Origin: a virus
Taxonomy: Duplodnaviria; Heunggongvirae; Uroviricota; Caudoviricetes
Strand: one strand, 5' to 3'
DNA length: 64,000 nucleotides
IMG/VR virus record: IMGVR_UViG_2671180747_000017
The position numbers are program-made. Below are positions 12,001-15,000 of this stretch, one piece after another; the stretch's first letter is position 1; each line of letters opens with the position of its first letter.

Positions 12001-15000
12001 GAAGTTAATACCTGTTGATATCAAATTTGAAAAGGACCTTGGATATCCATGCGCAATCATGCCTGCACTGGTCGGGTATTATAACTGGAAAAGAACTCCT
12101 TATGATCGACCGATTTATACCACATCCACTGGTGCTACAGGAAATAAAATATATTCCTGTGAGCATTATTCCGGCGGTGCAACATGGGATATTCGAAAGC
12201 CGTATATAGATAAGGTCCTGGTTATTAATACATCAGTATATGATTAGTTGAAGCGAGTCTTTAATATTCATTTAAAATGTCTAAAAAGATGTATTATTAA
12301 AAAGTTTAGCGTGTTATCTGAATACAGGATATCTTAAATGAAGAGTATAGCAACACTGGTTGTGTGTGCAATCTCCGGGATTGCCTGTGTAAATTTATCT
12401 GCACATGCAGCAGAAGGAAACCATACAATTTCTCTGGGGTATGCGCACTTTCAGTTTCCGGGACTGAAGGATTTTGTAAAGGATGCGACTGCTCATAACA
12501 GGGAGACTTTCAGTCATTTCGTCAACAGAAACTACTTTTCTTCATTGGGCGAATATACAGATGGTCGGGTCAGTGGATATGAAGGCAAGGATAAAAATCC
12601 ACAGGGCATTAATATCAGGTATCGCTACGAGATAACGGATGATTTTGGCGTTATCACCTCTTTTACATGGACGCGTTCTCTCACTAACTCACAGACATTT
12701 ATTGATGTGCAGTCAGCCGATCATACCAGGAAGATTAAGAATCCGGCAGCTTCTGCCAGAACGGATATCAGGGCGAATTACTGGAGTCTGTTAGCGGGGC
12801 CTTCATGGCGGGTTAATCAGTACATGAGCTTATATGCGATGGCAGGGATGGGCGTTGCTAAAGTTAGCGCTGACCTGAAAATTAAGGACAATATTAACAG
12901 TAGTGGCGGATTTTCTGAAAGCAACAGCACGAAAAAAAACTCCCTTGCGTGGGCTGCAGGTGCACAGTTTAACCTGAATGAGAGTGTTACACTGGATGTG
13001 GCTTACGAAGGTTCCGGCTCTGGCGACTGGCGCACGAGTGGAATTACTGCTGGCATTGGCCTGAAATTCTAACCTGTATCCGGTAACCGTTTACTACCCG
13101 CTGTGATGGCGGGTTTTTTATTGCCCGTACAGGGCAAAAACCGTAAATTATGCGTGGGTGCCTTTCGGCTGATGGCTGGAGGGTGAACCTGAAGGCCTGA
13201 TGTGGAAAGGCCCCGAGTCAACTTAACGTTAACCCGAGGCCCTAACACTTCGTACCTTGACAAGTAGAAGGTTAGCGCCTCTCCACTCAGGAGGCAAGCG
13301 CTATGTCGCAAAAATCGCTTATCACCGTCACAATTTGTATGACGGTTATCTTCACTATCTGGATGTTGCACGGTTCGCTGTGTGAGTTCCGGCTGAATTT
13401 GTGGGGAGCGGAGTTTGCGGCGTTCTTACAGTGTAAGCAGTAGGAAAACCGCGACGGGGACGAAAGTCCCCGTCAACTGGTTGCTGAGGTTCAGCCGATA
13501 TGGCACCCGTTTCAGGTGAGAGAATGAACGATAAAATTCTCCGGTATATGCAGCGTGTGGTGAGAAATTCCCGCAACCCTGAATTTATGAATGAAGTTAA
13601 AGACGCCTGCCTTAAAAAGCAGGCGTTTTGTTTTGAGGCACCTGATGGCTTTCTGGTGCTGCGTTCTGTGCTCAGTGCTGATGGTATCCCTTATGTTCTG
13701 GTGTTGCTGGGCGTGTGTACGGGGAGTAACAGCGTTGAGCGTTATCTGCCGGAGGTGAAGACATTAACCCGTCTGGCTGGCGGACGTTGGGCTGAATTTC
13801 ATACGGCAAGGCGGGGATTTATCCGGCTGGGAAAACGTCTGGGCTTTGAGCGAATGCCGGATGATGAGGATGGCTTCATGGTGTTCAGGATAGCGGTCTG
13901 ACTGCCACAGTTTTCATCATCGTGTTTAAACCAACATTGCAATTCACATTCTGACCCTGCTCCGGCAGGGTTTTTTTATTATCCAGGGGGCCATTATGGG
14001 TGGAAGTAAAGGTGGTGGTGATACCAAAGTAAAACCAACAGCAGCGCAAATAGCACAGGAAGAAGTGGCCTGGAAAGGGTGGCAGGATTACAAAAATATC
14101 CTCCGCCCGGCTGAAGATAACTTCATGGAAAAGGTCGATGACCTGAACAGTGAGCAGCAGTACGACAATATCGCTGGCACCACAAATCTGGGGTATCAGA
14201 AACAGTTTGGCGAAGCACGGAAGGAGCTGGCGGGTAATCTTGCTCAGTCCGGTGTTGACCCGTCCAGTGGTCGCTTTAACGCGGTAATGAATGCGAACCA
14301 GAGTGATCAGGTAACCGGGCAGATTGACACAACCACACGGGGGCAGGTATCGCAGGCAGATAAGTATGTTGCCGGGCTACAGGATGTTGCAGCTCTCGGT
14401 TCAGGTCAGAAGGCGGATGCGTTACAGAGTTTTAACTCGCTGGCAGACAGCAGTCTGGCAAAAGCTAAATCGGACGCACAGGCTGCGTTTACGAAACAGC
14501 AGGGGCGAGCCTCTCTTGTTGGCGCTGGTTTGGGTGCGGTAGGTGCATATGCGATGCATAAGGCTGGTGGTAGCGGAGGAAGTGGCGGTGCTAAAACACC
14601 GGGCACCGGCGCTAATGCCATTCAGCATCAGGCTCAGAACTGGAGACTGTGATTATGGAGTACGGTAAATACGAAACACTTGCGAGATACGGTTATACCG
14701 GAGCTGCCCGTCCACAGGGTGACTGGCAGACGTCAGCAGCGCTGACACGCCAACAATACGACGACTGGCGAACCAGATATTTGCCCCGCGTGGCAAGGCT
14801 GGCTGACCTTGGCGAGAACAACAGCCTGATGAATGCACAGCTTGCCCGGGTGGGCGGCCTTGCCACTTCCAGTCTCCGTACAGCGCAGATGGCGCAGGAT
14901 AACCAGATGGCGAGATACGGGGTAAGCCGCCCGGATAATCCCGACAGTAATACGCTGGGGTTACGTAATGCCCTGGCAATTGCTGGCGCGAAAAATGGTA

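What the first reader, a model, noticed from the sequence alone, without database searches (positions are those of the whole stretch)
13130..13480. Unannotated Hok-family toxin gene (HokA-like) between lom and the internal-virion operon
A 46-codon ORF (13303-13443) with an AGGAGG site encodes MSQKSLITVTICMTVIFTIWMLHGSLCEFRLNLWGAEFAAFLQCKQ, which has the Hok/Gef hallmarks: an N-terminal TM helix, SLCE(F/L)R, and AAFL near the C-terminus. It falls below the length cutoff of the ORF track. A hok/sok-type locus in the late region would act as an addiction module or moron, and the 170 bp upstream should carry the mok frame and antisense Sok RNA.
Basis: partly seen in the sequence, partly recalled or inferred. 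Interest (0 to 1): 0.5.

Follow-up and report, generated by a model that had tools for sequence, protein, structure and literature searches.

The report
Known Hok toxin cassette in Stx phage
The 46-codon ORF is a real Hok-family membrane toxin gene inside a compact hok/sok-type toxin-antitoxin cassette carried by Shiga-toxin phages, but it is already annotated, catalogued and reported as toxic, so it is an ordinary, known element with a few unusual details.

Summary
The ORF at 13303-13443 exists exactly as described and is a Hok/Gef family member (Pfam 33.2 bits against a cutoff of 22). It is not new. RefSeq annotates the identical protein (WP_000078907.1), and PHROGs holds the family as phrog_251. 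A 2025-26 preprint lists the exact peptide as Hok 72_1589 and reports it toxic on induction. The window is the late region of a 933W-like Stx prophage. The gene sits in a ~390-bp cassette (13121-13508) that recurs at 66-100% identity in P2-like, lambda-like and other prophages. In silico I found a sigma-70-like hok promoter and a 5'/3' closing helix (tac/fbi). I also found an alternative local 5' stem (tac/ucb-like), a second long-range helix with covariation, an SD-sequestering hairpin, and an antisense Sok-like gene whose -10 box matches the mutationally tested sokW -10. Two features depart from the R1 paradigm. No mok frame is conserved (43 of 83 variants have none, and this copy has only a TTG without an SD). 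The Stx-phage copies have also lost the terminator that follows fbi elsewhere. 'HokA-like' is only loosely right. The experimentally studied hokW-sokW is a different locus. Interest is low.

The parts
13121..13149 (+). Predicted hok promoter: -35 TTGCCC (13121-13126), 17-nt spacer, -10 TAAATT (13144-13149). It is the left boundary of the mobile cassette and directly abuts the lom terminator (13096-13114 plus a T run).
   Evidence: Read from the sequence. Homology with copies in unrelated contexts begins at ATTGCC. TTGCCS is kept in 67/83 variants and TAnnnT in 81/83, with a 17-nt spacer. The consensus scan tool did not call it. The transcription start was not mapped.
13156..13510 (+). Predicted full-length core of the hok mRNA, from the 5' end GGGUGCC to just past the fbi box.
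   Evidence: Rfam RF01794 model position 1 aligns at 13156 (37.9 bits, E 1e-6, below the gathering score of 59). MFE is -152.7 kcal/mol, z = -5.55 against shuffles. BLAST homology to diverged copies ends at 13508.
13156..13172 (+). tac-like 5' element (GGGUGCCUUUCGGCUGA). It can pair either with fbi (13491-13508) or with the internal box 13202-13214.
   Evidence: The MFE fold pairs it with fbi. Across 42 non-redundant homologs, 89.4% of cells pair against 31-45% in slid controls, with only one-sided GC/GU changes. The alternative local stem pairs in 99.1% of cells.
13202..13214 (+). ucb-like internal box (GUGGAAAGGCCCC). It captures the 5' end once fbi is removed.
   Evidence: RNAalifold consensus of 42 sequences, pair counts, and in-silico 3' trimming, which switches the 5' end onto this box. 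The name follows the R1 scheme in PMC9841398.
13236..13281 (+). Hairpin predicted only in the trimmed RNA: GAGGC (a vestigial mok-SD-like box) pairs with GCCUC (dcb-like, part of the hok anti-SD), with loop CUUGACAA. It is the analogue of the mok-SD/dcb stem and presents the target of the Sok 5' tail.
   Evidence: Fold of trimmed RNAs. The loop's unpaired probability rises from 0.40 to 0.92-0.94. The basal 11 pairs are kept in at least 90% of 42 homologs, but the 3' arm is invariant, partly forced by my search pattern, so there is no covariation test.
13255..13267 (+). 5' arm of a second long-range helix that pairs with 13477-13489 in the closed full-length form.
   Evidence: RNAalifold on 8 BLAST-derived homologs. 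On 42 homologs, 93.8% of cells pair against 13-52% in slid controls, with 24 doubly changed cells and 0/500 shuffles reaching that. This copy has one A.C mismatch (13260/13484).
13477..13489 (+). 3' arm of the second long-range helix.
13269..13297 (-). Predicted Sok-like promoter on the minus strand: -35 TTGCCT (13297->13292, overlapping the hok SD), 17-nt spacer, -10 TAACCT (13274->13269).
   Evidence: Read from the sequence. [quoted passage not shown] There, the sokW promoter-less mutant of Takada et al. changes -10 positions 1, 3 and 6, which I inferred from primer YO-421 and the Fig. 1E legend. AGGTTAGCGCCTC is invariant in 8 BLAST-derived homologs at 75-85% identity. In the 83-variant set this box was forced by the search pattern.
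13204..13261 (-). Predicted Sok-like antisense RNA of about 58 nt: a ~14-nt single-stranded 5' tail, then a 16-bp hairpin followed by UUUCC.
   Evidence: Fold of 13262->13200: -31.3 kcal/mol, z = -5.8. The ends are inferred from the promoter spacing and the hairpin. No transcript data were found.
13273..13303 (+). Hairpin that sequesters the hok SD in the full-length form: outer helix UAGCGC:GCGCUA, inner CCUCUCC:GGAGG. The hok SD AGGAGG is at 13289-13294.
   Evidence: MFE fold. The outer helix pairs in 100% of 42 homologs with GC/GU changes, while the inner helix register varies. SD unpaired probability is 0.18 in the full-length RNA.
13303..13443 (+). hok coding sequence, 46 codons plus stop.
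   Evidence: Identical protein WP_000078907.1 'Hok/Gef family protein'. It equals preprint entry 72_1589, which is reported toxic.
13257..13385 (+). The only frame that overlaps the hok start in this copy (TTG start, 42 codons, no SD). It is a candidate mok that the comparison does not support.
13453..13474 (+). Conserved hairpin just after the hok stop codon (GACGGGGAC-GAAA-GUCCCCGUC).
   Evidence: Four of its pairs show compensatory changes in 6-14 of 42 sequences.
13491..13508 (+). fbi-like 3' element (UCAGCCGAUAUGGCACCC). It is the right boundary of the cassette.
   Evidence: Homology to copies in other contexts ends here.
13603..13626 (+). First terminator-like hairpin downstream of fbi, about 93 nt after it and inside the next gene. 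It is a possible 3' end of the hok transcript in Stx phages.
   Evidence: In the other contexts examined (about 21 of 30) a canonical terminator lies 18-40 nt after fbi, but it is absent from the seven Stx-type copies examined (window, L004, L026, L030, L033, L084, L131). L018 has none.

Best explanation
This is a prophage-borne type I toxin-antitoxin cassette of the hok/sok family, already known as a gene. It was inserted as a self-contained ~390-bp module between the lom terminator and the next late gene of a 933W-like Stx phage. Shown or reported: it encodes a Hok-family peptide with an N-terminal membrane helix and a C-terminal domain with conserved Cys and Glu, and a preprint reports that exact peptide as toxic to E. 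coli on induction. Inferred from sequence, folding and comparison: the hok mRNA starts near 13156 from its own promoter. It is held closed by pairing of its 5' end (tac) with a 3' box (fbi) and by a second long-range helix, while a local hairpin hides the hok ribosome-binding site. When the 3' end is trimmed, the 5' end flips onto an internal box (ucb-like) and a new hairpin forms. That hairpin presents a loop to the antisense RNA and ties up part of the anti-SD, so the start region opens. A ~58-nt Sok-like antisense RNA, made from a minus-strand promoter that overlaps the hok SD, pairs with 13204-13261 and keeps the toxin off, by triggering duplex cleavage and/or by returning the anti-SD to the SD. 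Unlike plasmid R1 hok/sok, no mok leader frame seems to be needed. In the Stx-phage lineage the cassette's own terminator has been lost, so its 3' end depends on the phage context. The likely biological role is a moron that penalises prophage loss or helps membrane damage and lysis on induction, as shown for the paralogous hokW-sokW of phage Sp5. That role is not tested for this locus.
For: - Family membership: Pfam PF01848 33.2 bits against a cutoff of 22; phrog_251 85.8 bits.
- Annotation: RefSeq and phage records call it Hok/Gef, 'host toxic membrane protein' or 'MokW-like host killing'.
- Toxicity: the exact peptide is 72_1589, cloned as LRP157. The text names only three other sequences as non-toxic among 45 tested.
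- Module boundaries: homology to 75-85% identical copies in P2-like (after ogr), lambda-like (J-hok-stf) and other contexts spans only 13136-13508. Conservation is 0.88, 0.87 and 0.86 in the leader, CDS and 3'UTR, against 0.60-0.63 outside.
- ORF integrity: intact in 82/83 variants with coding-type codon-position variability. The three CDS differences from the Sakai Sp5 copy are all synonymous.
- RNA: Rfam hok-leader model E 1e-6; full-length fold z -5.55 with 5'/3' closure; tac/fbi 89% paired against 31-45% in controls; alternative tac/ucb-like stem 99% paired; long-range helix 2 with significant covariation; the switch on in-silico trimming and its reversal when the Sok target is blocked.
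- Sok: hairpin RNA z -5.8; the -10 TAACCT matches the mutationally tested sokW -10.
- R1 scheme used for the mapping: PMC9841398.
Against: - No transcript, start-site or antisense RNA data exist for this locus.
- The Rfam score is below the gathering threshold (37.9 against 59).
- tac/fbi and the target hairpin show conserved pairing but no compensatory double changes. Part of the Sok promoter's invariance in the 83-variant set was forced by my search pattern.
- The predicted opening of the SD on trimming is small (0.18 to 0.24-0.30), and only the AUG region opens clearly (0.21 to 0.44-0.54).
- The Sok terminator has only three U's.
- R1 hok strictly needs mok translation, and this copy lacks a credible mok, so translation may be poor.
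- The Stx copies lack the terminator near fbi, which may disable the 3'-processing switch.
- The toxicity result comes from a non-peer-reviewed preprint, using a heterologous SD and promoter.
Confidence: 0.72

Rival explanations
1. Silent relic. The toxin ORF is intact, but in the Stx phage the cassette is regulatorily dead. It has no mok to open the hok SD and no terminator near fbi to allow 3' trimming, so Hok is never made and the element is a neutral passenger copied along with the phage.
For: No conserved mok, and only a TTG without an SD in this copy. mok translation is mandatory in R1. The terminator present in most non-Stx contexts is missing in the Stx lineage. There is one A.C mismatch in long-range helix 2 of this copy. 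The Stx-type copies are 97-100% identical, so their ORF integrity could reflect recent spread.
Against: Across copies as low as ~66% identical, the ORF stays intact in 82/83 variants, with coding-type substitution patterns and a leader more conserved than the CDS. The lack of mok is a property of the whole subfamily, not a lesion of this copy, which argues for a different mode of translation control rather than decay. All three CDS differences between the window and Sp5 copies are synonymous. The Sok promoter and the hok SD-sequestering helix are retained.
Confidence: 0.18
2. Canonical three-gene hok/mok/sok locus. On this view a mok leader frame in the 170 bp upstream is translated and coupled to hok, and Sok blocks mok initiation.
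For: A GAGG box (13236-13239) sits where the mok SD lies in the hokD/hokW-type locus, and the TTG at 13257 falls within the stretch complementary to the Sok 5' tail, 3 nt from the position of the mokW ATG relative to the AGGTTA box. In some homologs (the ST131 and BEC1 types) an ATG in the invariant GATGTGG opens a 61-codon frame that runs past the hok start.
Against: GAGG is 17 nt from the TTG, too far to serve as its SD. The in-frame option is closed by TAG 13273-13275. In this copy the ATG 13200 frame stops at TAA 13224-13226. 43 of 83 variants have no ATG/GTG/TTG frame overlapping the hok start, and the rest use non-homologous starts.
Confidence: 0.08
3. Chance ORF with a hydrophobic stretch, not a gene.
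For: It is only 46 codons long and lies on the opposite strand to a 100-codon mechanical ORF that overlaps it.
Against: Pfam, NCBIfam and PHROG hits, conservation in more than 1700 E. coli genomes and about 200 phage records, and the reported toxicity.
Confidence: 0.01

Closest known systems
hok/mok/sok of plasmid R1 (the type I toxin-antitoxin paradigm)
   Same: Hok-family peptide (34% identity over 32 aa). Long leader. tac/fbi 5'-3' closure, an alternative tac/ucb-type stem after 3' trimming, and a stem equivalent to mok-SD/dcb that presents the antisense target. A short cis-antisense RNA with a single-stranded 5' tail and a terminator hairpin, made from a promoter just upstream of hok.
   Different: No conserved mok frame. 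The peptide is shorter (46 aa against 52). Rfam's hok-leader model scores below threshold. In the Stx phage no terminator follows fbi. The setting is a prophage rather than a plasmid. None of the RNA steps has been tested for this locus.
hokW-sokW of Stx2 phage Sp5 (Takada et al. 2021, PMC8621323) and its close paralog hokD/relF of the Qin prophage, present in this window at 57036-57460
   Same: A Hok-family type I TA carried by an Stx or lambdoid prophage. The Sok promoter has the same layout and -10 hexamer (TAACCT). The phage Sp5 itself also carries the finding's locus, with an identical peptide.
   Different: It is a different locus and a different Hok cluster (cluster 35; 51 aa, MKQQKAM...; 37% identity). 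hokW/hokD has an in-frame mok, a terminator after fbi and 115 bits on Rfam. Its function was tested: toxicity, Sok antitoxin activity, partial RNase III/Hfq dependence, and help in phage release. The lom-adjacent locus is not mentioned in that paper and was left intact in its deletion strain.
HokA of E. coli K-12
   Same: It is the best-scoring named paralog: 45% identity over 40 aa, with the shared motifs SLCE and AAFL.CK.
   Different: NCBIfam HokA equivalog score is 38.4 against a cutoff of 89. The Hok survey puts it in a separate 60%-identity cluster, 93 against 72. HokA sits at a fixed chromosomal site, whereas this cassette moves among prophages.
Hok cluster 72 of Escalera-Maurer et al. 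(bioRxiv 10.1101/2025.08.07.668861) / PHROG phrog_251 / RefSeq WP_000078907.1
   Same: This is the finding itself. The exact peptide is entry 72_1589, a member of a high-abundance cluster, cloned and reported toxic. The P2-type variant 72_1621 was also tested.
   Different: The survey analysed only the coding sequences. It states that mok, Sok and the mRNA elements were not analysed. The RNA anatomy, the lack of mok and the terminator loss described here are additions.

Membership tests
Hok/Gef toxin family (Pfam PF01848) | The peptide matches the family profile above the curated threshold. | tested here: met
   33.2 bits against a cutoff of 22, E 4e-8, covering residues 8-44. phrog_251 85.8 bits.
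Hok/Gef toxin family (Pfam PF01848) | Conserved residues M1, C16, T18, L30, C31, E32, E41 (logo numbering of the 1264-peptide survey) and an N-terminal hydrophobic helix. | tested here: met
   C12, T14, L26, C27, E28 and E37 of this peptide fall on those logo positions in the survey's own alignment row. The hydrophobic stretch is LITVTICMTVIFTIWML.
Hok/Gef toxin family (Pfam PF01848) | The peptide is toxic when expressed. | not testable with these tools
   A preprint reports it for the identical peptide (72_1589, plasmid LRP157): 42 of 45 tested were toxic, and the three exceptions are other sequences.
HokA (NCBIfam NF007290 equivalog) | Score at or above the equivalog cutoff. | tested here: not met
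   38.4 bits against a cutoff of 89. It is in a different 60% cluster from HokA.
hok/sok type I TA locus (R1 paradigm, as summarised in PMC9841398) | Long-distance tac/fbi stem closing the full-length mRNA. | tested here: met
   Present in the MFE fold. 89.4% of cells pair in 42 homologs against 31-45% in slid controls, and the 7-bp core pairs in 97.6%. Support comes from conserved pairing and GC/GU changes, not from double compensatory changes.
hok/sok type I TA locus (R1 paradigm, as summarised in PMC9841398) | [quoted passage not shown] | tested here: met
   Both are predicted on in-silico trimming. The tac/ucb-like stem pairs in 99.1% of cells, and the basal 11 bp of the second stem in at least 90%. 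This is thermodynamic prediction only.
hok/sok type I TA locus (R1 paradigm, as summarised in PMC9841398) | A cis-encoded antisense Sok RNA with its own promoter, complementary to the leader. | tested here: inconclusive
   Promoter-like TTGCCT-17-TAACCT on the minus strand, positionally homologous to the tested sokW promoter. The predicted RNA folds well. No expression data exist.
hok/sok type I TA locus (R1 paradigm, as summarised in PMC9841398) | A mok reading frame that overlaps hok, with translation coupled to hok. | tested here: not met
   No conserved frame. This copy has only a TTG at 13257 without an SD, and 43/83 variants have none.
hok/sok type I TA locus (R1 paradigm, as summarised in PMC9841398) | A terminator shortly after fbi, giving a 3' tail that is trimmed to activate the mRNA. 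| tested here: not met
   Absent in this and the other Stx-type copies; the nearest terminator-like hairpin is 93 nt downstream inside the next gene. It is present 18-40 nt after fbi in most other contexts.
Rfam RF01794 ('sok', in fact the sense hok leader) | Score at or above the gathering threshold. | tested here: not met
   37.9 bits against 59, E 9.8e-7, full-length match 13156-13314. The hokD locus in the same window scores 115.3.

The most novel reading that the evidence does not exclude
This Hok cluster (72) may be a naturally mok-independent branch of hok/sok. In it, the antisense RNA would control hok translation purely by an RNA switch: Sok binding would free the anti-SD box GCCUC so that it re-closes the hok SD. 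In Stx phages the cassette has additionally lost its terminator and become fused to the late operon, so that late read-through transcription, rather than 3' trimming, would decide when the toxin is made. If so, Sp5 and 933W-type phages carry a second, overlooked Hok that could act redundantly with hokW-sokW in lysis timing and phage release, which would confound the published single-deletion phenotype.
Probability: 0.25. Interest if true: 0.4.

Novelty: already known. Interest (0 to 1): 0.17.

Why it matters
As a gene it adds nothing new. It is annotated, catalogued and reported toxic, and multiple Hok copies in EHEC have been known since 2010 (14 in Sakai). Three modest points may be useful to specialists. 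First, the classic Sakai reference record leaves it unannotated, and the only functional study of a Hok system in an Stx phage (hokW-sokW in Sp5) left this second hok in place, so its twofold phenotype may underestimate the contribution of Hok toxins to phage release. Second, the subfamily offers a natural test of whether mok is dispensable in hok/sok regulation. Third, the sharply bounded ~390-bp unit found in several unrelated prophage settings is a clean example of a type I TA cassette moving as a moron.

Tried and rejected
- I first assumed that the published hokW-sokW of Sp5 was this locus. Its primers instead map to 57041-57225, and its peptide is a different, 51-aa Hok.
- I then assumed the 57-kb locus lay in the same phage. 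Mapping showed it is hokD in a separate Qin-like prophage, beyond host genes ynfF-rspB.
- From memory I labelled the covarying long-range helix 'ucb/dcb'. PMC9841398 shows that ucb and dcb are boxes complementary to the mok SD, so I renamed it long-range helix 2 and remapped ucb and dcb.
- My first hand-assigned coordinates for that helix were off by one and gave mismatches. They are corrected.
- The sigma-70 consensus scan found no promoters in 12900-13800, because both proposed promoters have weak -10 boxes (3 of 6 matches for Sok). They rest on homology and conservation instead.
- A genome-wide pattern scan gave only 5 hits, three of them in implausible taxa and probably contaminants. The viral scan supplied the diversity.
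- Literature searches for transcripts or antisense RNAs at this locus, or for hok together with 933W and lom, found nothing.
- I did not run protein homology or structure searches, since they would add little for a 46-aa membrane peptide that is already classified.
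Full report
**1.

Window 13303-13443 (+) is an ATG-initiated 46-codon ORF encoding MSQKSLITVTICMTVIFTIWMLHGSLCEFRLNLWGAEFAAFLQCKQ. AGGAGG lies at 13289-13294, 8 nt upstream. It matches Pfam HOK_GEF above the curated threshold (33.2 bits against 22, E 4e-8) and PHROG phrog_251 'MokW-like host killing', in the moron category (85.8 bits). The best NCBIfam model is HokA, but far below its equivalog cutoff (38.4 against 89). Upstream lies an Ail/Lom gene (12338-13072) with an intrinsic terminator (13096-13114 plus a T run). Downstream lie phage genes of unknown function (phrog_610, phrog_611, phrog_596), one with a weak virion-structural match.

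**2. Where the window comes from, and whether the gene is new**

- The 421 bp around the ORF are 100% identical to Shigella phage Ss-VASD, Escherichia phage P13771 and the Stx2 prophage of O104:H4, and 97-99% identical to 933W, VT2-Sakai (Sp5) and about 190 other Stx-phage records.
- Similar DNA occurs in 1750 of 5426 complete E. coli genomes.
- RefSeq annotates exactly this ORF as 'Hok/Gef family protein' WP_000078907.1. P13771 calls it 'prophage host toxic membrane protein', and phage P27 calls it 'MokW-like host killing'.
- The classic Sakai record leaves it unannotated between ECs_1236 and ECs_1237, although the peptide there is identical.
- The survey preprint of Escalera-Maurer et al. 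(bioRxiv 10.1101/2025.08.07.668861) lists the exact peptide as entry 72_1589 in a high-abundance cluster and cloned it (plasmid LRP157) for arabinose-induced toxicity tests. [quoted passage not shown] HokA is in cluster 93 of that survey, so 'HokA-like' is only a loose description.
- Fozo et al. (PMC2887945) already counted 14 Hok genes in Sakai in 2010.

As a gene, this is already known.

**3. It is not the published hokW-sokW**

Takada et al. 2021 (PMC8621323) showed that hokW-sokW of Sp5 is a functional type I TA that promotes phage release. Their HokW is a 51-aa peptide beginning MKQQKAM. Their primers map in this window to 57041-57225. That is a complete canonical locus scoring 115 bits on Rfam RF01794, with an in-frame mok, an fbi box and a terminator. 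Its peptide is identical to K-12 HokD. Annotation of a colinear genome shows that it lies in a separate Qin-like prophage, past host genes ynfF-rspB, and not in the Stx phage. The lom-adjacent locus is not mentioned in that paper and remained in their deletion strain.

**4. The unit is a sharply bounded mobile cassette**

Diverged copies (75-85% identical) align only over 13136-13508. They sit in unrelated settings: after ogr at the end of P2-like prophages, between gpJ and the tail-fibre gene of a lambda-like prophage, and next to ykgM. A motif scan gave 83 distinct variants, mostly from viral contigs.
- Column conservation is 0.88 in the leader, 0.87 in the CDS and 0.86 in the 3'UTR, against 0.60 and 0.63 in the flanks.
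- The ORF is intact (46-48 codons) in 82 of 83 variants.
- Codon-position variability is 0.133, 0.065 and 0.188 for positions 1, 2 and 3.
- The three CDS differences between the window and Sp5 copies are all synonymous.

**5. RNA anatomy (all in silico)**

- **Leader and promoter.** Rfam's 'sok' model, which in fact models the sense hok leader up to the AUG, matches 13156-13314 end to end at E 1e-6 but below its gathering score. A sigma-70-like promoter (TTGCCC, 17 nt, TAAATT; 13121-13149) precedes 13156 and is conserved as TTGCCS-17-TAnnnT.
- **Closed form.** The 355-nt RNA 13156-13510 folds at -152.7 kcal/mol (z -5.55). Its 5' end GGGUGCC..CGGCUGA pairs with UCAGCCG..GGCACCC (13491-13508), which is the tac/fbi arrangement. 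On 42 non-redundant homologs (mean identity 0.81, minimum 0.66) this helix pairs in 89% of cells, against 31-45% in slid controls. Only one-sided GC/GU changes occur, because the 5' arm hardly varies.
- **Second long-range helix.** The helix 13255-13267 with 13477-13489 has real covariation: 24 doubly changed cells, a level that 0 of 500 shuffles reach.
- **Alternative 5' stem.** RNAalifold on the 42 sequences prefers a local stem between the 5' end and GGAAAGGCCCC (13202-13214), which pairs in 99% of cells.
- **Switch on trimming.** In the scheme for R1 (PMC9841398) the full-length RNA has tac/fbi and the truncated RNA has tac/ucb plus a mok-SD/dcb stem. Removing 13491-13510 in silico produces exactly this switch. 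The 5' end moves to the internal box, and a hairpin GAGGC...GCCUC (13236-13281) forms. The loop CUUGACAA goes from 0.40 to 0.92-0.94 unpaired. The AUG region opens from 0.21 to 0.44-0.54, and closes again to about 0.2 when the Sok-complementary stretch is blocked. The SD itself opens only from 0.18 to 0.24-0.30, so this support is moderate.

**6. The antisense gene**

On the minus strand, TTGCCT (13297->13292), 17 nt, TAACCT (13274->13269) reproduces the layout of the Sok promoter in the hokD/hokW-type locus (57191->57186 and 57168->57163). The promoter-less sokW mutant of Takada et al. changes positions 1, 3 and 6 of that TAACCT and abolishes antitoxin activity. I inferred the changed positions from primer YO-421 and the legend of their Fig. 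1E. The box AGGTTAGCGCCTC is invariant in the 8 BLAST-derived homologs. In the larger set it was forced by my search pattern and so carries no weight. The predicted RNA (about 13261->13204) has a 14-nt single-stranded tail and a 16-bp hairpin followed by UUUCC (-31.3 kcal/mol, z -5.8). I found no expression data.

**7. Two departures from the paradigm**

- **No mok.** The hok frame is closed by TAG 13273-13275. The only overlapping frame in this copy starts at TTG 13257 with no SD, and the frame from ATG 13200 stops at TAA 13224. Among the 83 variants, 43 have no ATG, GTG or TTG frame overlapping the hok start, and the rest use non-homologous starts. A GAGG box survives where the mok SD would be, apparently as a structural element. 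[quoted passage not shown]
- **No terminator near fbi in the Stx copies.** Of 30 copies examined, about 21 in non-Stx contexts have a canonical terminator 18-40 nt after fbi. The seven Stx-type copies examined lack it, because homology stops at fbi. In six of them the next gene follows, probably starting at ATG 13524 (the phrog_610 profile starts at residue 9), and the first terminator-like hairpin is 13603-13626, inside that gene. The seventh (L131) has different downstream DNA and only a weak, distant terminator-like hairpin.

**8. Verdict**

The finding is a real hok/sok-family cassette but a known one. The best-supported mechanism is an R1-like RNA switch controlled by a Sok-like antisense RNA without mok. 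The main rival is a regulatorily silent relic. The residual interest lies in the lack of mok, the terminator loss, and the fact that Sp5 carries a second Hok ignored in the only functional study.

Noticed in passing
window 57036-57460 (+): A complete canonical hokD/mok/sok-type locus (Rfam RF01794 115 bits) with an in-frame mok (57148-57360), an fbi box and a terminator. Its peptide is identical to K-12 HokD. It lies in a Qin-like prophage, not in the Stx phage. The published hokW primers match it perfectly.
   Followed up: yes
L138 786-926 (Sakai NC_002695.2, about 1292619-1292759): Sakai prophage Sp5 encodes the identical 46-aa Hok between ECs_1236 (lom) and ECs_1237, but the reference record does not annotate it. 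The delta-hokW-sokW strain of Takada et al. 2021 would still carry it.
   Followed up: yes
window 13603-13626 (both strands): A strong bidirectional terminator-like hairpin (ACGCCTGC-CTTAAAAA-GCAGGCGT plus a T run) inside the coding sequence of the phrog_610 gene. It is conserved in Stx-type copies and may end the hok transcript or attenuate transcription.
   Followed up: partly
window 13500-13901 (+): The downstream gene probably starts at ATG 13524 (after GGTGAGAG) rather than 13500. The phrog_610 profile begins at residue 9, and phage P27 annotates the shorter form. With that start it does not overlap the fbi box.
   Followed up: partly
window 51780-51831 (-), 60505-60928 (+), 63406-63790 (+), 29082-29167 (-), 29618-29702 (-): Rfam gathering-level hits: DicF, two cspA-type thermoregulator leaders (cold-shock genes of the Qin-like prophage), and two sRNA-Xcc1 copies in the region just past the Stx prophage structural genes.
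   Followed up: no
L034 4318-4670 and 5040-5394; L113 5545-5896 and 6000-6355: Some viral contigs carry two different copies of this hok cassette in tandem, a few hundred bases apart.
   Followed up: no
L013, L014, L016 (genome-contig hits): The exact E. coli-phage hok motif occurs in contigs labelled Xanthomonas pisi, a Planococcaceae MAG and Vagococcus sp. This is most likely assembly contamination rather than true hosts.
   Followed up: no
L011 5639-5712 (O104:H4 NZ_CP022086.2 713638-713711): The O104:H4 genome has a frameshifted Hok/Gef pseudogene just past the end of its Stx prophage. The window diverges from that genome at about 25120 and has no counterpart.
   Followed up: partly
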